From Clostridia bacterium (GTDB lineage: Bacteria > Bacillota > Clostridia > Oscillospirales > Acutalibacteraceae): 21,106 nucleotides of DNA. Positions within the stretch are counted from its first letter, which is position 1. Each line of letters starts with the position of its first letter. The notes below the pieces were generated by a model. The model did no database searches. It worked only from the letters and a program-made list of their open reading frames with translations, and had not been told where the DNA came from. Positions 7,880 through 21,106 of this stretch are shown one piece after another. Position numbers and translations under genes: made by a program. The DNA is taken from assembly GCA_017624735.1 (NCBI GenBank), contig JAGAMK010000052.1, forward strand, positions 1 to 21,106, written 5' to 3'.

Positions 7880-8512
7880 ATGAACAGGATGGAGTTAACA
7901 AGAAAGTATTGGAAATATTATTTGATGCTTGAAAAAAGGTTTATAGATTCCGCTGAGTATGTTGAATTTCACAAGGATAACTTTGAAGTGTTTTCTAATG
8001 GATATGCATTATTGATAGAAGCAATTGGTGCGGAATTGGATACGGTTTTCAAGGAGTTTTGCGGATTTAATATGGATGAAAGAAAGACAATAGCTGATTA
8101 TGCACAATTTGTCCTGTCTAATAATTCAGATATTGTAAATATTAAGATAGACCTTAGAGAGTACGATATAGAAATACAGCCATTTAAAAATTGGAACACA
8201 CAACAACCCGCACAAACTTTATTTTGGTGGTCGGCCTTTACAGATATAAAGCATAACCGTTATGATAATAAAACAAAAGCTAATTTAGAAAATGTCTTAA
8301 ATATCTTAGGTGCATTATATTTGATAGAAATGTTATTTTTGAAAAAAGCAACTGATAACACAACGGAATTAGATGTATTTGATGAATCTTCAAATTTGTT
8401 TACGCTGAAAAACTGGACAACAAAATCCATACCTTTGGAACGAGCTTTTGATGTTTTAGCAGATATGATCGAAAGAGATGATGGAACAACAGGTTTAGAG
8501 TTTGATGCGTAA
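7880..8512 (+). CDS. Hypothetical alpha-helical protein (210 aa); possibly a HEPN-like/abortive-infection-type protein
   Basis: Clean ORF with RBS and its own promoter, and visibly AT-richer than the flanking int. The motif 'LFWWSAFTDIKHNRYDNKTKANLENVLNILGALYLIE' (His codon at 8252-8254) reminds me of the WW-x-x-Y/F-N/T-x-I/V-KH-x-R signature of a HEPN-like family. This rests on recall only. Confidence 0.6.
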   Translation: MNRMELTRKYWKYYLMLEKRFIDSAEYVEFHKDNFEVFSNGYALLIEAIGAELDTVFKEFCGFNMDERKTIADYAQFVLSNNSDIVNIKIDLREYDIEIQPFKNWNTQQPAQTLFWWSAFTDIKHNRYDNKTKANLENVLNILGALYLIEMLFLKKATDNTTELDVFDESSNLFTLKNWTTKSIPLERAFDVLADMIERDDGTTGLEFDA

Positions 8513-10761: not shown

Positions 10762-10857
10762 AAATACGCAAAATTGTTCGATGTAATATTGACTTGCAAG
10801 TAGGGATATGCTATAATAAGAGCGTAAAAATGCGTAAATACGCAAAATTATTCGATG
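10762..10857. repeat. Pair of 22-bp direct repeats, AAATACGCAAAATTGTTCGATG (10762-10783) and AAATACGCAAAATTATTCGATG (10836-10857), bracketing a promoter; embedded palindrome TGCGTAaaTACGCA at 10831-10844
   Basis: Read directly, 21/22 identical. The first copy begins at the nucleotide after the SLOG stop codon. The second ends at the ATPase RBS. Confidence 0.7.
10789..10817 (+). promoter_or_regulatory. Consensus SigA/sigma70 promoter of the ATPase gene
   Basis: TTGACT (10789-10794), a 17-nt spacer, then TATAAT (10812-10817). This is one mismatch from the full consensus, 52 nt upstream of the ATG at 10869. Confidence 0.7.
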
Positions 10858-10868
10858 AGGTATGCGTT

Positions 10869-12167
10869 ATGATTGAAAGAAAAAAGTATCTCGAAAAATT
10901 GATCAGCAAAAAGGAGAACGGCTTAGTTAAGGTTATTACCGGTATCAGACGATGCGGTAAATCTTATTTGCTGTTCAATATATATAAGGACTATTTGAAG
11001 TCAATCGGAGTAGAAGACGAGTGTATTATTTGCCTTGCTCTTGATGATGACGAAAATATTCAGTATCGTAATCCCCTTGAACTCGGCAAACATATCCGCA
11101 GCTTGACTGCCGATGAGAGCAAAACTTACTACGTTTTCCTTGATGAGATTCAAAAGGTTGTTACCATTCAGAATCCGTATATCGAGGGTGTTGAGGATAA
11201 GATCGGTTTTGTCGATGTTGTGCTTGGTCTTATGAAGCACGACAATATTGACGTGTATGTTACCGGCAGTAACTCAAAAATGCTGTCCTCCGATATCCTC
11301 ACCGAGTTCCGTGGCCGTGGCGATGAAATCAGAGTTAATCCGCTTTCCTTTGCGGAGTTTTATAATGCTTTCGAGGGAGAAAAGCGCAATGCTTGGCAGG
11401 AGTATTACACCTATGGTGGTCTTCCCCTCGTAATGACTAAAAAGAGTCATGAAGAAAAAGCGAAATATTTGCAATCGCTTTTTGATGCAATCTATATCAG
11501 CGACATTATGGATAGAAACAAGCTTGTGTACGAAAAAACGGTGCTTGACGATATTCTTAACATAGTTTCGTCTTCGGTTGGCTCACTTACTAATGCTAAC
11601 AAGATTACCAACACCTTTAAGAGTGCGAAGCAGATGAATATCGGTGCGCCCACCGTTAACAGATATCTGGACTATTTCATTGATGCGTTCCTTCTCTACA
11701 AAGCCGAACGTTATGACGTTAAGGGAAGAAAGTATATCGGCTCGCCGCTTAAATACTATTTCAGTGATGTGGGACTTCGCAATGCGCGACTTAATTTCCG
11801 TCAGCAAGAAGAGAATCACATTATGGAAAACATTATTTATAACGAGCTTTGCGGTCGTGATTTCAGCGTGGATGTCGGCGTGGTCGAGTATTGCTATAAA
11901 GATGCAGAAAAGAAGAGCAAACGTACCCAGCTTGAAATCGACTTTGTTGCGAATAAGGGTAGCAAAAAATACTATATTCAGTCGGCATTGACCGTCGCAG
12001 ACGAGGAAAAGCGTGAGCAAGAGATCCGTTCCTTAAAGCGTGTCGGCGATTCTTTTAAGAAGATTGTAGTAGTTAAAGACAACATCATCCCCTGGCACGA
12101 TGACGACGGCATCCTCTACATCGGCATCGAACAATTCCTGCTTGATGAGAATGCAATGGATATGTGA
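10869..12167 (+). CDS. AAA_14 P-loop ATPase with C-terminal DUF4143 (restriction-endonuclease-like fold) domain
   Basis: Start at ATG 10869 (GAGG 8 nt upstream); the longer ORF would begin inside the promoter. Walker A is 'GIRRCGKSYLL' and Walker B is 'VFLDEIQ'. The C-terminal 'LEIDFVANKGSKKYYIQSA' sits where DUF4143 proteins usually carry a D...E-x-K motif, here Q-S-A. Confidence 0.75.
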   Translation: MIERKKYLEKLISKKENGLVKVITGIRRCGKSYLLFNIYKDYLKSIGVEDECIICLALDDDENIQYRNPLELGKHIRSLTADESKTYYVFLDEIQKVVTIQNPYIEGVEDKIGFVDVVLGLMKHDNIDVYVTGSNSKMLSSDILTEFRGRGDEIRVNPLSFAEFYNAFEGEKRNAWQEYYTYGGLPLVMTKKSHEEKAKYLQSLFDAIYISDIMDRNKLVYEKTVLDDILNIVSSSVGSLTNANKITNTFKSAKQMNIGAPTVNRYLDYFIDAFLLYKAERYDVKGRKYIGSPLKYYFSDVGLRNARLNFRQQEENHIMENIIYNELCGRDFSVDVGVVEYCYKDAEKKSKRTQLEIDFVANKGSKKYYIQSALTVADEEKREQEIRSLKRVGDSFKKIVVVKDNIIPWHDDDGILYIGIEQFLLDENAMDM

Positions 12168-12258: not shown

Positions 12259-14619
12259 GTGATCTTAAATAAAAAACAGATGACTGAAGAAGACATAAAG
12301 TTACAATATATAACCCCTGCAATCCAAGCAAAATGGGGACTCGATCGTATTACAATGGAAACTAAGATTACTGATGGTAGAATCAATCTTAAAGGTAATA
12401 TTGTAACTCGCGAAAAACCCAAGAAGGCGGACTATGTATTGTACTTGACAAATAATAAACCTATTGCAATTGTTGAAGCCAAAGATAACAATCATTCTGT
12501 TTCTTATGGCCTTCAACAAGCAATCACCTATGCCAAGATGCAGGACATTCCTTTTGCGTATAGTTCTAATGGTGACGGTTTTCAAGAACACGATCTTTTG
12601 ACCGGCTTGGAGCGCACCTTATCTATGGACGAGTTTCCAACGGTTGAGGAACTTACTGCACGTTGGGAAAGCGAATCAAACGGTGGCGAAGGAATCTCTG
12701 CAGATGAAAAGAAAATAATCGTACAGCCGTATTACTCTAGCCAAAATACGTATGATCCAAGATATTATCAGCGTAACGCAATAAATAAAACCGTTGAGGC
12801 AATTGCAAGGGGAGAAAAACGTTTGTTGCTGGTAATGGCAACAGGCACCGGCAAAACCTATACAGCTTTCCAAATTGTTTATCGCTTATTGAAAAGCGGA
12901 TTGAAGAGAAAGGTGTTATATTTAGCTGACCGCAATATTCTTGTGGATCAGTCTATTCAACAAGACTTTGCACCTCTTGAAAAAACTATACATAAAATCA
13001 ATTTTGCAAAAGATGATCCTATTACCATCACTTCTCACGAGGTTTATTTCTCCCTTTATCAGCAACTTGCAGGTAATGAGGAAAACGAAGATGATAGCGC
13101 AGAAGAAACCGTTGAACGCTTCGCTAAACTCTTTAATAAGGATTTCTTTGACCTTATTATTGTAGATGAGTGTCATAGAGGTTCTGCAAAAAAAGATAGC
13201 AACTGGCGTAAAATTCTTGATTATTTCACTTCGGCTACTCAAATTGGTATGACTGCCACGCCAAAAGAAACCAAATATATTTCCAACATTGATTACTTTG
13301 GCGAACCTGTATATACCTATAGTCTGCGCGAAGGTATTGAGGATGGCTTCCTTGCTCCTTTTAAGGTCATCAATATTAAAACGGATATTTCGGATGGTTG
13401 GCGCCCTTGCAAAGGTCAGCTTGATAAGTTTGGCAACGAGATTGAAGACCGTATCTATACCAACAGCGACTTTGATTACAACATCATTTTGGAAGATCGC
13501 ACCTATGAGGTCGCCAAAGAAATTACCGAATACTTAAAGAACACTGATAGAATGCAGAAAACTATCGTATTTTGTGCAACCGAAGATCATGCCGAGCGTA
13601 TGCGTATTGCGCTGAATAACCTCAATGCCGATATGGTTAAGGAAAATCCCGATTATGTCGTACGCATTACAGGATCCGACACCTACGGCAAGAGCAAGCT
13701 TGATTACTTCATTTCCGTTTCTGCCCCCTATCCGGTGATTGCAACCACATCGAAACTGCTTTCTACCGGTGCAGACTGCAAAATGACAAAACTGATCGTC
13801 CTCGATGAAATGATCAGTTCTATGACCGAGTTTAAGCAGATCATCGGCCGTGGTACACGTTTGCGTGAAAAGGAAGGCAAAAATTACTTTGTGGTTATGG
13901 ACTTCCGTAATGTTACAAGACTGTTCTCTGATCCCGATTGGGATGGTCCAATTGAGGTGGTGGACGGTTATGATCCGGAACATAAACCAACACCAAAAAC
14001 ACCAAACCCTGGAAACGGTGATAATCCCGTTACACCTCCAACAGTGGATAAATATATCGTAGATGAAAACGGCTGCGATGTTCATATTATCGGAAAACGA
14101 GTTGAAGTTTACGATGTAGATGGTAAACTTCTCCGTCAGGAAAGTATCGTAGACTATACAAAGTCGAATATCCTTGGCAAATACGCTTCCCTTGATAACT
14201 TCATCCTTAGATGGACATCCGAAGAAAAGAAAGAAGCCATTCGAGAACTGCTGAAAGAGCAAGGCATCGACCTTGAGCAAATGAAAGCAGATCAAGAAAT
14301 GACCGATGTCGATGACTTTGACTTTATTTGCCACGTGGCTTTTGATCAAAAGCCACTCACTCGTCGTGAGAGAGCGAACAATGTCAAAAAGCGTGATTTC
14401 CTCAGCAAATACAGTGGTGTTGCAAGAGAGGTGTTGGAAGCCCTTCTCGATAAATATATGAATACCGGTATTTACGAAATTGAGAAAACCGAAATTCTTC
14501 AGCTTGATCCTTTCAAGAAGTTCGGTAAGCCTTCCAAAATTGCCACCTATTTTGGTGGCAAAGCGGGTTATCTCCAAGCCATTAAGGAATTGGAAGAAGA
14601 ATTATATAAAGCAAGTTAA
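12259..14619 (+). CDS. hsdR: Type I restriction enzyme R subunit (HsdR) with EcoEI-R-like C-terminal domain
   Basis: GTG start 7 nt after AAGGAGG (12245-12251). N-terminal PD-(D/E)xK: 'ADYVLY...IAIVEAKD'. Helicase motifs: 'LLVMATGTGKTYTAF' (I), 'IIVDECHRG' (II), 'GMTATP' (III), 'QIIGRGTR' (VI). Confidence 0.9.
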   Translation: MILNKKQMTEEDIKLQYITPAIQAKWGLDRITMETKITDGRINLKGNIVTREKPKKADYVLYLTNNKPIAIVEAKDNNHSVSYGLQQAITYAKMQDIPFAYSSNGDGFQEHDLLTGLERTLSMDEFPTVEELTARWESESNGGEGISADEKKIIVQPYYSSQNTYDPRYYQRNAINKTVEAIARGEKRLLLVMATGTGKTYTAFQIVYRLLKSGLKRKVLYLADRNILVDQSIQQDFAPLEKTIHKINFAKDDPITITSHEVYFSLYQQLAGNEENEDDSAEETVERFAKLFNKDFFDLIIVDECHRGSAKKDSNWRKILDYFTSATQIGMTATPKETKYISNIDYFGEPVYTYSLREGIEDGFLAPFKVINIKTDISDGWRPCKGQLDKFGNEIEDRIYTNSDFDYNIILEDRTYEVAKEITEYLKNTDRMQKTIVFCATEDHAERMRIALNNLNADMVKENPDYVVRITGSDTYGKSKLDYFISVSAPYPVIATTSKLLSTGADCKMTKLIVLDEMISSMTEFKQIIGRGTRLREKEGKNYFVVMDFRNVTRLFSDPDWDGPIEVVDGYDPEHKPTPKTPNPGNGDNPVTPPTVDKYIVDENGCDVHIIGKRVEVYDVDGKLLRQESIVDYTKSNILGKYASLDNFILRWTSEEKKEAIRELLKEQGIDLEQMKADQEMTDVDDFDFICHVAFDQKPLTRRERANNVKKRDFLSKYSGVAREVLEALLDKYMNTGIYEIEKTEILQLDPFKKFGKPSKIATYFGGKAGYLQAIKELEEELYKAS

Positions 14620-14633
14620 AATCAGGTGGTTTT

Positions 14634-15254
14634 ATGGAACATAAGCACATTTGCGATCTGACACCAATAGAATTTGAAAGGTATTGTTATAACTTTTTGA
14701 ATGGATATGCCAAAAAGGAAGGATTGCAGGATTTCAAGATAACTCACAACACAAGAATCAAAGCTTCCGATGGCAAATACCAGATAGACGTTTATGCTGA
14801 GTTTACCGCTATGGGCTCCCGATTCAAAGTTTTGTGTGAATGTAAGAAATACAAAAACAGAGTGAACAGAGATAAAGTCGCCATTCTCCACCGCAAGCTT
14901 GAAAGCATCGGTGCACAAAAAGGCATTTTGATTTCAACAAGCGACTTTCAAAGCGGAGCTGTTGAATACGGAAAAGCACACGGAATTACTTTGATTAAAG
15001 CCGAAGATTATCATTTTGAATATCTTTCCCATTCCAGCGGTCAGCAGCAAAATGATGACAATGATCCGTTCCTTTATGCTGAAAAACATATGCCTCCGTA
15101 TGTTGCATTTGATTGCACTGCTGATACCGAGGAACCTCTTAAAATATATCCCACACGGGAAATGATTAAAGAACTCCTCATAGAACAAAGCCACAAGATT
15201 AAAGAAATATTAGGTATTGACGTACCACTTGATTTTTCAGATATAGATACATAA
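14634..15254 (+). CDS. Mrr-cat-type restriction endonuclease domain protein (206 aa) nested between hsdR and hsdM
   Basis: AGGTGG RBS, 14 nt after the hsdR stop. 'LTPIEFERYCYNFL...DGKYQIDVYAE...FKVLCECKKYKNRVNRDKVAILHRKLESIGAQKGILISTSDFQSGAVEYGKAHGITLI' fits the Mrr_cat D...E-x-K pattern. The C-terminal 70 aa or so are unassigned. Confidence 0.8.
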   Translation: MEHKHICDLTPIEFERYCYNFLNGYAKKEGLQDFKITHNTRIKASDGKYQIDVYAEFTAMGSRFKVLCECKKYKNRVNRDKVAILHRKLESIGAQKGILISTSDFQSGAVEYGKAHGITLIKAEDYHFEYLSHSSGQQQNDDNDPFLYAEKHMPPYVAFDCTADTEEPLKIYPTREMIKELLIEQSHKIKEILGIDVPLDFSDIDT

Positions 15255-15274
15255 GAAAGCGCAGGTTAAATTAT

Positions 15275-16795
15275 ATGAGTAATTTATCAGGATTTGTAAA
15301 AAGAATTCGTGACATTATGCGAAATGATGCAGGTATCAACGGTGATGCCCAACGTATTGAGCAGATCGCATGGTTGCTCTTTTTAAAAGTATATGATGCC
15401 AAAGAGCAGGATTGGGAATTCGATGATGATAGCTATACATCGATCATTCCTGAAGAATGCCGTTGGGCAAATTGGGCAGTAGATGATAAATCCGGTTCGG
15501 CAATGACCGGCGATAGATTGCTTGATTTTGCAAATAATACTCTTTTCCCTGTGCTTAAAGGTAATGATATCAAAGATACTAATGGTAACGTGTTGATAGG
15601 TGGCGTAAAAGTAGATGCATCAACCCCTATTAAAAAAGCTATTGTTCAGACTACCTTTGCTGATGCAAACCAATATATGAAAGACGGCGTTCTTCTTCGT
15701 CAGGTAATCAATGTCATTGATGAACTTGACCTTTCCGACTATGAAGAAAGCCATGCATTCGGTGACATTTACGAGTCAATCTTGAAGGAACTTCAAAGTG
15801 CAGGTAGCGCAGGTGAGTTTTATACTCCTCGTGCTGTTACTGATTTTATGGCACAGATGATTCAGCCGAAAATTGGTGAAGCAATGGCAGACTTTGCTTG
15901 TGGTACCGGCGGTTTTATCACAAGCTGGCTCAAAGAATTGCAAAAGCAAGTGTGCAGTACAGCCGATGCAGAGAAATACGGGAACTCTATTTACGGTATT
16001 GAGAAAAAGCAGTTTCCGTATATGCTTTGTATTACCAACTTGTTATTGCACGGTTTGGATATTCCTCGTGTATATCACGATAACTCTCTCTTAAAAGATG
16101 TTTTGGACTACACAACGGATGACCAATTTGACGTTATCCTTATGAACCCTCCCTACGGTGGTAGTGAAAAGGTAGATGTGAAAAATCACTTCCCGTCCGA
16201 CCTTGCAAGTTCTGAAACTGCCGATCTCTTTATGTCGGTCATTATGTACCGCCTAAAACAGAACGGCCGTGTTGCGGTTATTTTGCCCGACGGTTTCCTG
16301 TTTGGTACAGACAATGCCAAGGTGAACATCAAGAAAAAACTGCTATCAGAATTCAACCTGCATACCGTTATTCGTATGCCGGGTAGTGTTTTTGCGCCCT
16401 ACACATCGATTACTACCAACATTCTGTTCTTTGATCGTACCAAACCCACAGAAGAAACTTGGTTCTACCGTCTTGATATGCCGGAGGGCTATAAGCATTT
16501 CTCCAAAACCAAGCCGATGAAGCTGGAGCATTTTGATCCCGTGGTGCAGTGGTGGAACAACCGTCAGGAGATCACCGTAGATGGTTTTGACAAGGCGAAG
16601 AAATTCACGGTGCAGCAGCTCACCGAAGAACTGGGTTACAACCTTGACCAGTGCGGCTATCCTCACGTCGAGGAAGAAATCCTCGACCCTATGGATCTGA
16701 TCCAGCGGTATCAGGAGGAGCGTGCCTCTCTGAACGCAGAGATTGATCGTGTGTTGGCTGATATTACCGCTATCCTCGGAGGTGGTCAGGAATGA
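15275..16795 (+). CDS. hsdM: Type I R-M N6-adenine DNA methyltransferase subunit (HsdM)
   Basis: HsdM_N-like N-terminus 'IRDIMRND...IEQIAWLLFLK'. Motif I is 'DFACGTGGF' and motif IV is 'NPPYGG'. The stop overlaps the hsdS start (ATGA at 16792-16795). Confidence 0.92.
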   Translation: MSNLSGFVKRIRDIMRNDAGINGDAQRIEQIAWLLFLKVYDAKEQDWEFDDDSYTSIIPEECRWANWAVDDKSGSAMTGDRLLDFANNTLFPVLKGNDIKDTNGNVLIGGVKVDASTPIKKAIVQTTFADANQYMKDGVLLRQVINVIDELDLSDYEESHAFGDIYESILKELQSAGSAGEFYTPRAVTDFMAQMIQPKIGEAMADFACGTGGFITSWLKELQKQVCSTADAEKYGNSIYGIEKKQFPYMLCITNLLLHGLDIPRVYHDNSLLKDVLDYTTDDQFDVILMNPPYGGSEKVDVKNHFPSDLASSETADLFMSVIMYRLKQNGRVAVILPDGFLFGTDNAKVNIKKKLLSEFNLHTVIRMPGSVFAPYTSITTNILFFDRTKPTEETWFYRLDMPEGYKHFSKTKPMKLEHFDPVVQWWNNRQEITVDGFDKAKKFTVQQLTEELGYNLDQCGYPHVEEEILDPMDLIQRYQEERASLNAEIDRVLADITAILGGGQE

Positions 16796-18207
16796 CACCG
16801 CAAGAATTGAAAGCAAGTATTTTGCAGTTGGCAATACAAGGAAAACTTGTTGAGCAATGTCCACAAGAAGGTACAGGTGAAGAATTGTTCCAGCAGATTC
16901 AGGTAGAAAAGCAGGCGCTCATCAAAGCCGGCAAAATCAAAAAAGAAAAGCCACTGCCTGAGATTCAAGAGGATGAGATTCCTTTCGAAATACCAAATAG
17001 TTGGGTTTGGATTAGGTTAGGCACTATAGTTAAAAGCATTTCTGCTGGCGGCGATAAACCTAAAATCTTTTCAAAAAGCAGAACCGCAGAATGTTCAGTG
17101 CCTGTAATATCAAATGGAGAAACCAATAAGGGTATATTCGGATACACGGATAAGGCTGAAATTACAGAGCGAAGTTTAACTGTTTCAGGAAGGGGCACCA
17201 TTGGATATGCCGAGATAAGGACGGAACCATATGTGCCGATCGTAAGACTTCTTGTTATAACGCCACTTGGCCATACATACTTGGAGTATATTAAGATAGC
17301 AATTCAGGCCTCTACTGAATATGGCGTAGGTTCGGCTGTGAAACAACTTACAGTACCTATGCTTGTTCCAAAGTTGATTCCGCTTCCGCCATTAGCCGAA
17401 CAAAAACGGATTGTGGCAAAGATTACGGAACTGATGCCCTATATCGACCGCTACGAACAAGCATGGAATAAGCTAGAGGACTTCAACACGCGTTTCCCTG
17501 TGGAGATGCAGAAATCCATCCTCCAGATGGCCATTCAGGGCAAACTGGTGGAGCAGCGCCATGAAGAAGGCACCGGCGAAGAATTGTTCCAGCAGATTCA
17601 GGTAGAAAAGCAGGCGCTCATCAAAGCCGGCAAAATCAAAAAAGAAAAGCCTCTTCCCGAAATTACAGAAGATGAGCTTCCGTTTGATATTCCGGAGAAT
17701 TGGCGTTGGGTACGGTGGGGTGATTTGTCGCAATCTATCCAGTACGGATATAATGCACCGGCTCAAGAAAAAGGTCGCATCAAAATGGTGCGAATCAGTG
17801 ATATTCAAGATGGAAAAGTGTTATGGGATACAGTTCCGTATTGTGATATCAAAGAAGATGACATCCCCACATACCTGCTTGGTGCAAACGATATTCTTTT
17901 TGCAAGAACAGGTGGTACAGTCGGCAAGTCTTATTTGGTGAAAGAAGTTCCAGAAGAAGCAATATATGCAGGATACCTTATTCGGACACAGTATAGTTCA
18001 CTTTTGTGTCCCGAATACATGAAGTATTTTATGGAGAGCCAGCTGTATTGGGATCAATTGAGAAACGGAACAATTGCAACTGCACAGCCAAACTGTAATG
18101 GCAAGACTTTGTCTAAAATGATCTTGCCACTCCCACCCCTTGCAGAGCAGAAGCGCATTGTTGCCAAACTGGAAGAAATCCTGCCGCTGTGCGAAAAGTT
18201 GAAATAA
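16792..18207 (+). CDS. hsdS: Type I R-M specificity subunit (HsdS), two target-recognition domains
   Basis: Duplicated conserved helices: 'ILQLAIQGKLVEQ...GEELFQQIQVEKQALIKAGKIKKEKPLPEI' (N-terminal and central) and 'PLPPLAEQKRIVAK' (central and C-terminal). These flank two dissimilar TRDs. Confidence 0.92.
   Translation: MTPQELKASILQLAIQGKLVEQCPQEGTGEELFQQIQVEKQALIKAGKIKKEKPLPEIQEDEIPFEIPNSWVWIRLGTIVKSISAGGDKPKIFSKSRTAECSVPVISNGETNKGIFGYTDKAEITERSLTVSGRGTIGYAEIRTEPYVPIVRLLVITPLGHTYLEYIKIAIQASTEYGVGSAVKQLTVPMLVPKLIPLPPLAEQKRIVAKITELMPYIDRYEQAWNKLEDFNTRFPVEMQKSILQMAIQGKLVEQRHEEGTGEELFQQIQVEKQALIKAGKIKKEKPLPEITEDELPFDIPENWRWVRWGDLSQSIQYGYNAPAQEKGRIKMVRISDIQDGKVLWDTVPYCDIKEDDIPTYLLGANDILFARTGGTVGKSYLVKEVPEEAIYAGYLIRTQYSSLLCPEYMKYFMESQLYWDQLRNGTIATAQPNCNGKTLSKMILPLPPLAEQKRIVAKLEEILPLCEKLK
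16879..16952 (+). repeat. 74-nt perfect direct repeat, copy 1 (hsdS N-terminal conserved region)
   Basis: Identical base for base to 17578-17651, an offset of 699 nt (233 codons, in frame). Confidence 0.85.
17578..17651 (+). repeat. 74-nt perfect direct repeat, copy 2 (hsdS central conserved region)
   Basis: Identical to 16879-16952. The flanks encode the same amino acids but differ at most synonymous positions. Confidence 0.85.
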
Positions 18208-18289: not shown

Positions 18290-21106
18290 ATGTGGGGAGA
18301 AATAATTTTAGCATTAGGACCTTCCGTTTTAGAAGCTATTGGATCTAAATTGTTAGATCGCAAAAACAAAGTTAAGGTGCAAAATAAACTAAATGATATT
18401 GTCAGCAAGCAATTTGATTGTTTTGCCGATTCTTCTTTGGATAGCGATAGTTTTTATACTCTAATTAAAAGTACCCGCTTTGTCGAAATTATTCGAAATT
18501 ATTTCTTTATGGTTAGAGACAATCAAAGTATCGAAGATTATCGCGCAAATATAGAAGCCTTGATTTGTGACGAATGTAAGTCTGCGAATATCCTCGATGT
18601 AAAAGAATTTGTCAGAAAAATAGAGGCATTATACATAGATTTCTTGAGTAAAATAATAGAAGATTACCCTGGAATCTATGTGGCTTTTCAATTGATGTCT
18701 ATTTCTCACAGAGAGATTATATCCAATATCCGAGGTAGTCAAAACGAATTAAAGAGGTATTTAGCGACATTGGAAAACAGAAAAGTTACTATTAGTGATG
18801 AAAATATCAGGCAGTACCATACAGTTACGGAAAAAGAATTTGGAGAAATTCGATTTACTGGAATTGCAGGTGCGGAACGTCGCAAAGCACAAAATATTAA
18901 CGAATTCTATGTTGAAAATACCTTCTCTTATTTTGGGAAAGAAATCGATCGGCTATATGAGTACAATGATGAAGAAATCGAATCAATAAAATTAAAAGAT
19001 TTTTTTGATTTAGGAAATAAAATTATATTGATAGGTGGGGCCGGACTTGGAAAATCCACTACGCTTAACTATCTTTTTTGTAACTATGAAAAATTGTATG
19101 ATGCCACTGCTTTAAAATTAAAGATAGATTTAAAAGAATATGCCGAAGAAATAGGCGAAAAGAAAAAAGGCGTATTATGGTGTGTTGCCAATGAATTTAG
19201 AAAGCGAATAAAGTATGCGGGTCAAACCACAGAAGAACTTCAGGCAGTAGTTGCTGAAAAACTGAATTCAGGGGCTTGCTTGGTTATATTAGATGCTCTT
19301 GATGAAATTCCTACACAAGCGCTTCGTGATACTGTAAGAAATGAAATCGAAACTTTCACATCGGTGTATTATCTTAATAGGTTTATAATTTCAACAAGGG
19401 AAGCTGGATATTTAAAAAATAGGTTCGATGAAACTTTTCTGCATATAAGAATCAATAAGTTTAATTCTGAGCAAATAAAAAAATATAGTAAGAATTGGTT
19501 TTTGTCAAATTATGAAGACTCAACTGATTTTGATGAGTTTTGGAACAAATTTGAAGATGAAGTTAAAAGAGCAAGATGTCACAACTTGATAAGAAATCCT
19601 ATCATTCTAGTGTTAGCATTGGTAATATTTAATTTTGAAAGTAGTTTACCTACAAGAAGAATAGAATTTTATCAAAAATGTATTGATACCTTTTTGACCG
19701 AACGCGAAAACCGAAAAGCTGCTGTTAAACTAAGTGATAAAACTAAAAGCATTTTGGCAATGAACTTAACTGTTCCTAAAATTGCTTTTTATAGACACAA
19801 TAAATTAATGAAAAACAGTAGTTTTCGGTTTGATTATTCTGAGCTGGAAAAGGCTATTAAGGAAGCAATATCCGTCGAGGATGAAATTAATTGGGCAACT
19901 GCCATAAAACAATATTCCGAATATTTAGTCGAAAGAACAGAGTTAATTCAAGAAATAGACGAGAACCATCTTGATTTTGCACACAAGACCTTTTATGAGT
20001 ATTTCTTGGCCTTTTATTTTTGTAAGATGTGTGATAACAAGGAACTAGTCAATTTGCTTCACAAGTGGATTGGAGATCCAAACTATGATGAGTTGGCTCG
20101 ATTGATTATCGAAGTTGTCATCCAAAATAATGAACCAAAACAGCACGATAAGATAATTGAGTGTTTATTTGAAATGCTCTCCCATAAAAACAGAGATAGA
20201 ATAGAAGGACCGGATACGCGTGATGTGTTTGCGGTTATATCTGACCTCTATACTCACAACTTGTTACAACCTAAATATCAATACAATTACCACAAATTCG
20301 TTTTATATAATCCTCAAATTATAGATCACATGAATTTTAGATACAGACGAAGAGAAGTTAAGAATAATTTGGCTTTATATGATCCTCAAATTGTTAAGGA
20401 TTTATTCTTGGCGGATTATCAAAATGGAAAACTTGTAGATGTGATTGATACTATCGCTTATTTGAATAATGAGTTTAAAAAAGCGGTCATCCCATTAGAT
20501 GCATCAGGTTTGCTTTATAATACTAACGAGTTGTTTATGACCCTTAGGGAGAAAAATAAGAAATCTAAAAATGATATGGATATTATTAAATATTTCACAG
20601 AGGATGGTATCAAATACACCTTAAAGTATCCTCAAATTTTTGTGGCTCTAATATCTTTATCAATAAAAACAAAGACTGCATTACCTATAGAGCAGTTGCT
20701 TAGATACGATTTTTCTCCAAGAAATGTTTTTTACAACTATACTTCACCTGATATCTTGATATCGTTAGTAGAAAACGCAATGAAAAGTAAAGATGATTTT
20801 GCGTTGTTTCTGACCGCAGTTATTGATTGCGCTCTTCAAGCTGCAAATTCAATTTGTAATTTCGTGATAAGCAACCGAAGCGATAGTCGTGATAAAGCGG
20901 TGAGTTGTTTCTATGCACAGTTGTGGAGGGTGTTGAACGAATCAAACTCTGTAGATGAATTTAAGAGCTGGATAAAAGAATTGGGACTTTTCGATGAAAA
21001 ATATGATTATCTGTACGAAAAAATGTATGCTCATTATTCAAGCACGGAAAAAGGTCTTTATGATGAACGCATTAAAAAATTTATAAAAAAAGAAAACATC
21101 AACTAA
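18290..21106 (+). CDS. NACHT-type STAND NTPase (bacterial NLR-like, 938 aa) with unassigned N-terminal (about aa 1-240) and C-terminal (about aa 600-938) regions
   Basis: AAGGAG RBS at 18274-18279. Walker A 'ILIGGAGLGKSTTL' (nt 19034-19057), Walker B 'LVILDALDEI' (nt 19280-19306), 'IISTRE' sensor-like motif, 'IRNPIILVLAL' (NACHT NPLxL-like), winged-helix 'LDFAHKTFYEYFLAFYF'. The ORF ends at the last base of the window. Confidence 0.85.
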   Translation: MWGEIILALGPSVLEAIGSKLLDRKNKVKVQNKLNDIVSKQFDCFADSSLDSDSFYTLIKSTRFVEIIRNYFFMVRDNQSIEDYRANIEALICDECKSANILDVKEFVRKIEALYIDFLSKIIEDYPGIYVAFQLMSISHREIISNIRGSQNELKRYLATLENRKVTISDENIRQYHTVTEKEFGEIRFTGIAGAERRKAQNINEFYVENTFSYFGKEIDRLYEYNDEEIESIKLKDFFDLGNKIILIGGAGLGKSTTLNYLFCNYEKLYDATALKLKIDLKEYAEEIGEKKKGVLWCVANEFRKRIKYAGQTTEELQAVVAEKLNSGACLVILDALDEIPTQALRDTVRNEIETFTSVYYLNRFIISTREAGYLKNRFDETFLHIRINKFNSEQIKKYSKNWFLSNYEDSTDFDEFWNKFEDEVKRARCHNLIRNPIILVLALVIFNFESSLPTRRIEFYQKCIDTFLTERENRKAAVKLSDKTKSILAMNLTVPKIAFYRHNKLMKNSSFRFDYSELEKAIKEAISVEDEINWATAIKQYSEYLVERTELIQEIDENHLDFAHKTFYEYFLAFYFCKMCDNKELVNLLHKWIGDPNYDELARLIIEVVIQNNEPKQHDKIIECLFEMLSHKNRDRIEGPDTRDVFAVISDLYTHNLLQPKYQYNYHKFVLYNPQIIDHMNFRYRRREVKNNLALYDPQIVKDLFLADYQNGKLVDVIDTIAYLNNEFKKAVIPLDASGLLYNTNELFMTLREKNKKSKNDMDIIKYFTEDGIKYTLKYPQIFVALISLSIKTKTALPIEQLLRYDFSPRNVFYNYTSPDILISLVENAMKSKDDFALFLTAVIDCALQAANSICNFVISNRSDSRDKAVSCFYAQLWRVLNESNSVDEFKSWIKELGLFDEKYDYLYEKMYAHYSSTEKGLYDERIKKFIKKENIN

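What the first reader, a model, noticed from the sequence alone, without database searches (positions are those of the whole stretch)
14634..15254. Stand-alone Mrr-cat nuclease nested between hsdR and hsdM of a Type I R-M operon
The gene is packed into the operon, with 14 nt and 20 nt gaps and its own RBS. It encodes only the catalytic Mrr-type PD-(D/E)xK core (D52, E69-x-K71) plus an unassigned acidic C-terminal 70 aa. It has no recognisable N-terminal DNA-binding or modification-reading domain. Type I operons are known to host nested 'restriction-linked' genes, such as the PrrC anticodon nuclease in EcoprrI and the rlo genes in Campylobacter. These act as back-up or guard functions when the R-M enzyme is inhibited. 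A minimal Mrr-like nuclease in this position could be a comparable guard, or a fourth subunit. It could also be simply a Type IV enzyme sharing regulation.
Basis: partly seen in the sequence, partly recalled or inferred. Interest (0 to 1): 0.6.

Follow-up and report, generated by a model that had tools for sequence, protein, structure and literature searches.

The report
Optional Mrr-type nuclease cassette in Type I operon
A small, intact DNA-cutting enzyme gene sits between the first two genes of a Type I restriction operon, but relatives show it is an optional single-gene add-on that also lives alone elsewhere, so it is one more example of the known habit of defence genes nesting inside other defence systems.

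Summary
ORF 14634-15254 encodes a 206-aa protein with an Mrr_cat PD-(D/E)xK core (residues 9-124). D52 and E69-x-K71 are invariant. It lies 14 nt after hsdR and 20 nt before hsdM of an EcoAI-family (Type IB) operon.

The acidic C-terminal region is a conserved alpha-beta-beta-alpha mini-domain. It is unique to this family and matches no known fold.

Linkage to Type I is real but not obligatory:
- 28 of 80 species-level homologous loci have the same hsdR-X-hsdM order, and one sits in a different Type I system.
- About 50 are solo genes with no recurring neighbour.
- The nested copies are not monophyletic (AU p = 6e-7).
- Five of ten genomes with a solo copy have no HsdR-like gene.
- In an unbiased sample of 13 related operons, 10 have hsdR abutting hsdM, including the closest one (90% HsdR identity). 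One has X, and two carry other small genes at the same junction.
- HsdR keeps its own nuclease motif whether or not X is present.

I read X as an autonomous accessory defence nuclease co-expressed with the operon, not a subunit or an obligate PrrC-like guard. How it chooses targets is unknown.

This is a new member of a known kind (TgvAB, rlo genes, "guilt-by-embedding" candidates). An unchecked first-reader note in this scan (e1-3852127) reports the same arrangement in another genome.

The parts
12259..14619 (+). hsdR, Type IB (EcoAI/FtnUII family) restriction subunit, 786 aa, with its own intact D58...E73-x-K75 nuclease motif
   Evidence: NF046051 at 1085 bits, plus ResIII and EcoEI_R_C. The motif is conserved in 27 X-bearing and 12 X-less operons.
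14608..14619 (+). Last codons and stop of hsdR (AAAGCAAGTTAA). This is the left copy of the junction motif that recurs after X.
   Evidence: Empty junctions read ...TATAAGGCAGGTTAA-n5-8-ATGAGC.
14624..14629 (+). Shine-Dalgarno sequence AGGTGG for X
   Evidence: Read directly from the sequence. It is conserved in L001-L005.
14634..15254 (+). X: 206-aa solo Mrr_cat nuclease with a family-specific tail
   Evidence: dN/dS is about 0.08.
14634..15008 (+). N-terminal PD-(D/E)xK (Mrr_cat) domain, residues 1-125, pI 9.0. Catalytic codons are D52 (14787-14789), E69 (14838-14840) and K71 (14844-14846).
   Evidence: Pfam. Invariant columns. AF2 model with Foldseek hits to the AspBHI, MspJI, AF1548 and EndoMS nuclease domains. 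Charge.
15009..15062 (+). Acidic, poorly conserved linker, residues 126-143. pLDDT is below 50 for residues 130-139.
   Evidence: (dN/dS 0.27).
15063..15212 (+). Conserved alpha-beta-beta-alpha mini-domain, residues 144-193 (DPFLYAEKHMPPYVA...IYPT...helix). It is an orphan fold.
   Evidence: It folds alone with pLDDT above 90. No PDB fold match, best E 3.5. Only 45 hits among 1.84 billion representative proteins; of three hits whose sequences were read, two are full-length family members and one (P0121) looks like an assembly chimera, and the rest are inferred from length and match position to be family members or fragments.
15255..15269 (+). GAAAGCGCAGGTTAA: a remnant-like copy of the hsdR 3' end, placed after X and carrying the ribosome-binding region of hsdM
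   Evidence: Compared with empty junctions in L081-L084 and with 12 or more nested loci.
15275..16795 (+). hsdM, 506 aa
   Evidence: N6_Mtase and HsdM_N; PADLOC MTase_I at 561 bits.
16792..18207 (+). hsdS, 471 aa. Its start overlaps the hsdM stop by 4 nt.
   Evidence: Methylase_S twice; PADLOC Specificity_I.

Best explanation
X is a catalytically intact, self-sufficient small DNA endonuclease. It belongs to a family that combines an Mrr_cat PD-(D/E)xK core with a family-specific alpha-beta-beta-alpha tail. It behaves as an optional single-gene cassette.

In gut and rumen Clostridia, one clade of this family has repeatedly lodged at the hsdR-hsdM junction of EcoAI-type Type I operons. There it is transcribed and translated in series with hsdR and hsdM and travels with them on mobile elements.

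It does not need the Type I enzyme to function, and the Type I enzyme does not need it. The most likely role is an independent second layer of nucleic-acid defence expressed together with the restriction system.

Shown here:
- anatomy and conservation of the protein;
- purifying selection;
- that X is optional for the operon;
- existence of solo copies;
- multiple transitions between nested and solo states.

Inferred, not shown:
- that it cleaves DNA;
- that it defends against phage;
- that the tail governs oligomerisation or auto-inhibition rather than target reading;
- that it hits DNA which Type I restriction misses, such as modified DNA.
For: Protein integrity:
- Mrr_cat match with invariant D52, E69 and K71.
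- dN/dS about 0.08, and 0.16 for the tail. dS is saturated, so these values are qualitative.

Autonomy:
- About 50 of 80 species-level loci are not next to any Type I gene.
- Their neighbours share no recurrent family; the most common Pfam family covers 3 of 89 neighbours.
- At least some solo copies show their own promoter-like (L017) or terminator-like (L019, L023) sequences, as read by eye.
- 5 of 10 genomes with solo copies have no HsdR-like match at 1e-10, and only 1 has an EcoAI-type HsdR elsewhere.

Optional for the operon:
- Of 13 EcoAI-type operons from an even sample of 400 genomes of the order, 10 have hsdR abutting hsdM. This includes the closest one, with HsdR and HsdM both 90% identical.
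- The nested copy in L037 is destroyed by a frameshifting deletion while hsdR and hsdM are intact.
- L046 and L013/L085 have truncated tails.
- The HsdR nuclease motif is intact with or without X.

Cassette behaviour:
- Nested copies are not one clade (AU p = 6e-7; at least 6 state changes on the tree).
- The same junction holds unrelated small genes in L089 and L090.
- A repeat of the hsdR 3' end flanks X.
- The four-gene unit recurs with varying flanks on elements carrying TnpV or HTH_17 genes.

Defence setting:
- Neighbours are PADLOC candidates PDC-S01, S04, S15 and S31, plus STAND NTPases, MmeI, AbiH and TIR.

Precedent:
- TgvAB acts independently of HsdR inside a Type I cluster (PMC11411939).
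- Embedded genes are mostly defence genes (bioRxiv 10.1101/2024.01.29.577857).
Against: - No activity, phenotype or expression data exist.
- There is no recognisable DNA-binding or modification-reading module, so the basis of self/non-self discrimination is unexplained.
- The position between hsdR and hsdM is kept in every nested EcoAI-type locus where both flanks could be read (L027 and L033 are cut at a contig end), across deep divergence of X (49-95% identity). Start and stop codons often overlap. This could reflect functional coupling rather than mere hitch-hiking.
- The strongly acidic tail (net -7 to -12) is confined to the very clade that associates with Type I operons.
- Distant Bacteroidota and Proteobacteria homologs sit among housekeeping genes, so defence is not proven for the whole family.
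Confidence: 0.6

Rival explanations
1. PrrC-like guard. X is a latent nuclease held silent by the Type IB complex, for example with its acidic tail docking in the DNA-binding groove of M2S1. It is unleashed when a phage anti-restriction protein (Ocr/ArdA type) disables the enzyme.
For: - The position inside the operon is invariant in 28 loci.
- There is an independent second association with another Type I family in L052.
- The acidic tail arose in the clade that associates with Type I.
- There is precedent in PrrC/EcoprrI (PMC12707154).
Against: - Solo copies with the same acidic tail are common and under the same conservation.
- 5 of 10 of their genomes lack any HsdR-like gene.
- Nested copies are polyphyletic.
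- PrrC is almost exclusively embedded (10.1101/2024.01.29.577857), whereas X is not.
- X does not co-vary with HsdR or HsdM more than those two co-vary with each other (Spearman about 0.31 for all pairs).
Confidence: 0.15
2. Fourth subunit or auxiliary nuclease of the Type I enzyme. X joins the translocating complex and contributes to, or replaces, DNA cleavage.
For: Tight packing and translational coupling with hsdR and hsdM. It is a nuclease placed next to a nuclease-motor subunit.
Against: - The HsdR D...ExK motif is intact in all X-bearing operons.
- Operons about 90% identical lack X.
- Decayed X copies sit in intact operons.
- Solo copies exist in genomes without Type I.
- The tail occurs in no other architecture.
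Confidence: 0.05
3. Not a defence gene. X could be a structure-specific repair or recombination nuclease, or a selfish stabilising module that merely rides on mobile DNA and was captured by the operon.
For: - Distant homologs in Bacteroidota and Proteobacteria lie beside housekeeping genes such as Tex and E1 dehydrogenase.
- There is fold similarity to EndoMS/NucS and AF1548.
- The four-gene unit sits on mobile elements.
Against: - In the clade to which X belongs, the neighbours are overwhelmingly defence candidates.
- Patchy distribution, rapid divergence (mean 63% identity against 77-81% for HsdR and HsdM) and cassette exchange are typical of defence genes.
- No antitoxin-like partner is present.
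Confidence: 0.12
4. Trans-acting effector nuclease of a neighbouring STAND/NACHT NTPase. The window has a NACHT gene at 18290-21106, and L025 and L054 have STAND genes directly adjacent to X.
For: - Mrr_cat is a common Avs/NLR effector domain (10.1101/2024.07.02.601686; PMC9122126).
- X gives a weak hit to the NACHT-associated iREase family PF22722.
- STAND genes are adjacent in L025 and L054.
Against: Only 3-4 of 80 loci have a STAND gene nearby. The window's NACHT homolog recurs only in L001. Downstream neighbours of the same operon vary, for example Kiwa and others.
Confidence: 0.03

Closest known systems
TgvAB, a GmrSD-like Type IV system embedded in the Type I R-M cluster of Vibrio cholerae VPI-2 (PMC11411939)
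   Same: It is a nuclease-encoding accessory module inserted between hsd genes and co-located with an active Type I system. Its anti-phage activity does not depend on HsdR restriction activity, although the whole cluster gave 10-100-fold more protection against several phages than tgvAB alone. This is the model for 'two complementary restriction systems nested in each other'.
   Different: TgvAB is a two-gene system with DUF262/DUF1524 (HNH-type) chemistry and a demonstrated preference for hypermodified cytosine. X is a single 206-aa PD-(D/E)xK protein with no reader domain and no data.
Embedded defence candidates found by 'guilt-by-embedding' (Payne et al., bioRxiv 10.1101/2024.01.29.577857; PADLOC HEC/PDC models)
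   Same: X is a gene nested between core genes of a Type I R-M system, and its homologs are also found non-embedded. Its neighbours in other loci are PDC-S01, S04, S15 and S31.
   Different: X is not itself modelled in PADLOC-DB 2.0. The only matches are weak ones (E 2e-5) to the nuclease part of the longer PDC-S02 and mREase_IV models.
EcoKMrr and the enteric immigration control region (hsdRMS next to mrr and mcrBC; PMC12707154)
   Same: It has an Mrr_cat catalytic domain and classical genetic linkage of an Mrr-type nuclease with a Type I hsd operon.
   Different: EcoKMrr has an N-terminal winged-helix DNA-binding domain and a PD-QxK site, and it is a separate transcription unit. X lacks Mrr_N, has D...ExK, carries an orphan C-terminal mini-domain, and lies inside the operon.
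PrrC in EcoprrI, and the rlo genes of Campylobacter Type I loci
   Same: They sit in a nested position within a Type I operon.
   Different: PrrC and RloC are ABC-ATPase/HEPN-type anticodon RNases. PrrC is almost exclusively embedded and is physically masked by the R-M enzyme. X is a DNA-nuclease fold, is frequently solo, and shows no evidence of masking.
MspJI/AspBHI catalytic domains and AF1548 (PDB 4f0p, 4oc8, 1y88)
   Same: These are the best structural matches to the N-domain of X (Foldseek E 6e-5 to 4e-4).
   Different: MspJI and AspBHI carry an SRA-like 5mC-reading domain that X lacks. The matches cover only about 115 residues, and the tail of X is unmatched.

Membership tests
Mrr_cat (PF04471) PD-(D/E)xK nuclease superfamily | Profile match above the curated threshold | tested here: met
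   58 bits against a cut-off of 21, residues 9-124.
Mrr_cat (PF04471) PD-(D/E)xK nuclease superfamily | Catalytic D...(D/E/Q)xK triad present and conserved | tested here: met
   D52, E69 and K71 are invariant in 22 homologs. The alpha/beta fold matches MspJI and AspBHI nuclease domains.
EcoKMrr-type Type IV restriction enzyme | N-terminal winged-helix (Mrr_N) DNA or modification-binding domain | tested here: not met
   No Mrr_N or other domain is found, and the nuclease fold starts at residue 9.
Type IV (modification-dependent) restriction enzymes in general | Cleaves only modified DNA | not testable with these tools
   This needs in vitro or plaque assays with modified and unmodified DNA.
Type IV (modification-dependent) restriction enzymes in general | Solitary nuclease without a cognate methyltransferase | tested here: met
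   Solo copies have no recurrent methyltransferase neighbour. In the window, the adjacent hsdM belongs to the Type I system.
Type I R-M holoenzyme subunit | Present in all related operons and required alongside HsdR, HsdM and HsdS | tested here: not met
   10 of 13 sampled EcoAI-type operons lack any gene between hsdR and hsdM. Decayed X copies occur in intact operons.
PrrC/RloC-type guard of Type I R-M | Near-exclusive genetic linkage to Type I operons | tested here: not met
   29 of 80 loci are nested and about 50 are solo. 5 of 10 solo-copy genomes have no HsdR-like gene.
PrrC/RloC-type guard of Type I R-M | ABC-ATPase plus anticodon-nuclease architecture | tested here: not met
   Only Mrr_cat is detected.
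PrrC/RloC-type guard of Type I R-M | Physical masking by the R-M enzyme and activation by anti-restriction proteins | not testable with these tools
   This needs co-purification and Ocr/ArdA/Stp challenge experiments.
Embedded defence candidate (guilt-by-embedding, Payne et al.) | Located between core genes of a multi-gene defence system | tested here: met
   hsdR-X-hsdM-hsdS in the window and in 28 loci.
Embedded defence candidate (guilt-by-embedding, Payne et al.) | Not a mobilome or housekeeping function, with homologs also found non-embedded | tested here: met
   It has a nuclease domain, and solo homologs lie in variable islands.
Embedded defence candidate (guilt-by-embedding, Payne et al.) | Confers phage defence when expressed | not testable with these tools
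   No experimental data were found in the searched literature.

The most novel reading that the evidence does not exclude
In the Clostridial clade, the acidic alpha-beta-beta-alpha tail could be a DNA-mimic latch that docks X onto the Type IB methylase/specificity core. X would then be a DNA-nuclease analogue of PrrC. It would stay silent while the Type I enzyme is intact and be released as a non-specific nuclease when phage anti-restriction proteins displace it. Solo copies would be escapees that use another latch.
Probability: 0.12. Interest if true: 0.75.

Novelty: new member of a known kind. Interest (0 to 1): 0.35.

Why it matters
If X is an active defence nuclease, it adds a compact (about 200 aa), reader-less Mrr-type enzyme with an orphan regulatory or oligomerisation mini-domain to the list of genes embedded in Type I systems. 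It also shows that the hsdR-hsdM junction of Type IB operons in gut Clostridia is an insertion hot spot. At least three unrelated small genes use it, and a two-gene cassette uses the hsdM-hsdS junction.

That makes these operons a convenient hunting ground for new single-gene defences in anaerobes that are hard to study. It does not change the understanding of Type I enzymes, and the general phenomenon is already published.

Tried and rejected
1. Replacement nuclease for a degenerate HsdR. Rejected, because the HsdR D58/E73/K75 motif is intact in all operons.
2. Fixed partner gene for solo copies. None found. The HTH-Fic neighbour recurs in only 6 loci.
3. STAND/NACHT effector link. Too rare.
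4. Identity of the tail:
   - Pfam and NCBIfam give nothing.
   - A tail-only profile against 1.84 billion proteins returns only 45 hits; the three sequences read were two family members and one chimera (P0121), and the rest look like family members or fragments by length and match position.
   - The tail-only AF2 model against the PDB gives a best E of 3.5.
5. PDB relatives by sequence or profile: none.
6. Phage and plasmid collections: no phage hit, and only N-domain matches of 43% identity or less on plasmids. The viral fold library matches only the nuclease core.
7. Remnants of hsd genes beside solo copies, sought to polarise escape against insertion: none seen.
8. Internal promoter or terminator around X: none above the shuffled background. 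Composition is the same as the operon.
10. The first dN/dS script timed out and was redone. dS is saturated, so the ratios are only qualitative.

Full report
**1. The observation**

ORF 14634..15254 (+) is the only long frame there. It encodes 206 aa from an ATG preceded by AGGTGG. It lies 14 nt after the stop of a 786-aa HsdR and 20 nt before a 506-aa HsdM. The 471-aa HsdS overlaps the hsdM stop.

- HsdR matches NCBIfam NF046051 (EcoAI/FtnUII Type I R subunit) at 1085 bits against a cut-off of 550.
- HsdM and HsdS match the corresponding Pfam and PADLOC models.
- X matches Pfam Mrr_cat over residues 9-124 (E 1.3e-15) and nothing else.
- X gives only weak hits to the nuclease parts of the longer PADLOC models PDC-S02 and mREase_IV.
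- No promoter-like or terminator-like site above background separates the genes, and base composition is continuous.

The description is correct.

**2. The protein**

A word-indexed search found 230 homologs, nearly all 200-212 aa and alignable end to end.

In an alignment of 22 of them, down to 58% identity, several features are invariant: D52, E69, K71, the helix-1 glutamates E13 and E15, and the Mrr-type 'STSxFQxGA' segment. Three prolines in the C-terminal part are also invariant.

AlphaFold2 (pLDDT 79.7, pTM 0.78) gives three parts:
- an alpha/beta nuclease core (residues 1-125);
- a disordered acidic linker (130-139);
- a compact helix-strand-strand-helix unit (145-193).

Foldseek against the PDB matches only the core, to the catalytic domains of AspBHI, MspJI, AF1548, EndoMS and the SPARSA nuclease. 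The viral library likewise matches only the core, to phage 'restriction endonucleases'.

The tail folds on its own with pLDDT above 90. It has no structural neighbour in the PDB, best E 3.5. A profile of the tail alone finds only 45 proteins among 1.84 billion representatives. Their lengths and match positions fit members or fragments of the same family. Of the three hits whose sequences I read, two are full-length family members and the 380-aa hit P0121 looks like an assembly chimera. The tail is therefore an integral, family-specific module, not a shuffled sensor domain.

The core is basic (pI 9.0) and the tail acidic (pI 4.4, net -11). This acidity (-7 to -12) is confined to one Clostridial clade. 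Sister and outgroup tails are about neutral.

Codon-level comparison among 21 nested loci gives dN/dS of about 0.08 for X: core 0.08, tail 0.16, linker 0.27. HsdR and HsdM give 0.04. dS is saturated, so this shows purifying selection only qualitatively.

**3. Where the family lives**

A scan of one genome per prokaryotic species returned 80 loci. tblastn and phmmer with the window's HsdR, HsdM and HsdS show the following:
- 28 loci have the EcoAI-type arrangement hsdR-X-hsdM(-hsdS). X identity ranges from 95% down to 49%.
- One locus (L052) has X inside a different Type I system, in the order R, S, X, DUF2971 gene, M.
- The other roughly 50 loci have no Type I gene nearby.

Solo copies include full-length proteins about 70% identical to X, with the same tail (L016-L023). 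Their settings vary:
- behind an HTH-Fic gene;
- beside Schlafen-type helicases;
- between an AAA_14/DUF4143 ATPase and a STAND NTPase;
- next to an MmeI-type enzyme and an FRG-domain gene.

A tally over 89 flanking genes of 27 solo loci found no family in more than 3 of them. The list mixes AbiH, TIR, KAP, Fic, integrases and some housekeeping genes. Several neighbours are PADLOC candidates: PDC-S04, S15 and S31.

Distant Bacteroidota and Proteobacteria homologs sit among ordinary genes. By eye, at least some solo copies have their own promoter-like (L017) or terminator-like (L019, L023) flanks and no hsd remnants.

**4. Phylogeny**

In a maximum-likelihood tree of 72 proteins, a 41-member Clostridial clade contains 26 nested and 15 solo copies, interleaved. 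At least 6 state changes are needed, and 3 are forced by well-supported branches. The AU test rejects a single clade of nested copies (p = 6e-7). Transitions between nested and solo states therefore happened several times. The direction could not be polarised.

Across nested loci, identity matrices of HsdR, HsdM and X correlate only weakly with each other (Spearman about 0.31 for every pair). X is more divergent, with mean identity 63% against 77% for HsdR and 81% for HsdM. The operons are mosaics, and X is not more tightly co-inherited with a partner than HsdR and HsdM are with each other.

**5. Is X needed by the operon, or the operon by X?**

An even sample of 400 genomes of the same order contains EcoAI-type HsdR in 16 genomes, including the window's own. 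For 13 operons, both hsdR and hsdM could be read:
- 10 have hsdR abutting hsdM, 8-25 nt apart. This includes the closest relative, L081, with HsdR and HsdM both 90% identical.
- One has X.
- One has an unrelated 170-aa ORF with a weak PDDEXK_5 match.
- One has a 223-aa ORF.

HsdR retains D58...E73-x-K75 in all 27 X-bearing and 12 X-less operons, so X does not replace a lost nuclease.

Some nested copies have decayed. In L037 a deletion throws the frame out. L046 and L013/L085 have altered tails.

Conversely, among 10 genomes with solo acidic-tail copies, only one has an EcoAI-type HsdR elsewhere, and five have no HsdR-like match at E 1e-10. MAG incompleteness applies, but one of the five is an isolate genome.

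The identical protein P0008 (94% to X) occurs in 249 blocks of the collection. In the six distinct places shown, among the 24 contigs read, it lies in the same four-gene unit with different flanks: Fic genes, Kiwa, a split canonical Mrr, and TnpV- or HTH_17-type mobile-element genes. The four genes therefore travel as a module on mobile DNA. This is consistent with the integrase end noted by other readers of this window.

**6. The junction**

Empty junctions read ...TATAAGGCAGGTTAA-n5-8-ATGAGC. In the window and its crown clade, X is bracketed by AAAGCAAGTTAA (the hsdR end) and GAAAGCGCAGGTTAA (just before the hsdM start). In L011 and L029 the X frame even ends inside that motif. The duplicated hsdR 3' end keeps the ribosome-binding context of hsdM. 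It looks like the scar of a precise insertion or recombination.

In deeper branches, stop and start codons overlap (L028, L031, L036), which indicates translational coupling R to X to M.

**7. Interpretation**

These results exclude an obligatory subunit and make an obligate PrrC-type guard unlikely. They fit the published pattern that multi-gene defence systems host embedded, functionally independent defence genes:
- TgvAB inside the Vibrio cholerae Type I cluster protects without needing HsdR's restriction activity, although the whole cluster protected 10-100-fold better against several phages (PMC11411939).
- Payne et al. found 17,432 genes embedded in BREX, DISARM and Type I systems. They note that PrrC is almost exclusively embedded, whereas many systems are only occasionally so (bioRxiv 10.1101/2024.01.29.577857).
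- Mrr_cat is a common defence effector domain (10.1101/2024.07.02.601686; PMC9122126).

I therefore read X as an autonomous accessory nuclease that shares the hsd transcript.

What it cuts and how it spares the host are not known. It lacks the winged-helix domain of EcoKMrr (PMC12707154) and the SRA-like domain of MspJI. My working guess is a homo-oligomeric Mg2+ endonuclease whose tail controls assembly or auto-inhibition. That step is inference.

The residual case for coupling rests on three points: the constant position, the independent second capture by another Type I family, and the clade-specific acidic tail. These keep a facultative guard model alive at about 12-15%.

**8. Novelty and score**

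The family is uncharacterised, and its tail is an orphan fold. The kind of thing, a small defence-type nuclease embedded in a Type I operon, is known. An unchecked first-reader note in this scan (e1-3852127) reports the same arrangement in another genome; I did not check that locus. I class X as a new member of a known kind, with interest 0.35.

Noticed in passing
L090:2861-3532 (hsdR-hsdM junction of another EcoAI-type operon) and window 7880-8512: The 223-aa gene inserted at the hsdR-hsdM junction in L090 is a homolog of the window's own solo ORF 7880..8512 next to the integrase (30% identity, E 5e-28). A second family therefore shows the same nested-or-solo behaviour. It has no Pfam or PADLOC match and carries a 'WW..Y/F..KH.R' motif.
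   Followed up: partly
L089:5498-6007 (minus strand): A different 170-aa ORF occupies the same hsdR-hsdM junction. It has a weak PDDEXK_5 match (E 6e-4), so it may be another small nuclease.
   Followed up: partly
L087:4254-5830; L010:9129-10717; L032:9112-10683: A conserved two-gene cassette is inserted between hsdM and hsdS in three EcoAI-type operons. It consists of a protein of about 322 aa with no match and a multi-pass membrane protein of about 203 aa with a weak PDC-M18B hit. L010 and L032 carry both this cassette and X.
   Followed up: partly
L023:5900-6680: The solo X copy is bracketed on both sides by near-identical hairpin-forming repeats (GACCTCTTGC...GCAAGAGGTC). This looks like a cassette boundary or paired terminators.
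   Followed up: no
L095/L098:4601-5505: Upstream of an X-bearing operon, a canonical Mrr is split into separate Mrr_N (174 aa) and Mrr_cat (124 aa) genes. Downstream lie the Kiwa genes KwaA and KwaB and a metallophosphatase-STAND gene. The same four-gene hsd unit elsewhere has other flanks.
   Followed up: no
L037:3238-3569: A nested X copy is destroyed by an internal deletion of about 280 nt that shifts the frame, while the flanking hsdR (94%) and hsdM (96%) are intact.
   Followed up: yes
window 10794-12167: The AAA_14/DUF4143 ATPase upstream of hsdR matches PADLOC candidate PDC-S01 (E 5e-107). Relatives also flank solo X copies (L017, L018, L025, L041).
   Followed up: partly
P0121 (380 aa, from the representative-protein search): This is an apparent fusion of a coiled-coil N-terminal region to a truncated X that starts after D52. 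It is probably an assembly or gene-calling chimera.
   Followed up: no
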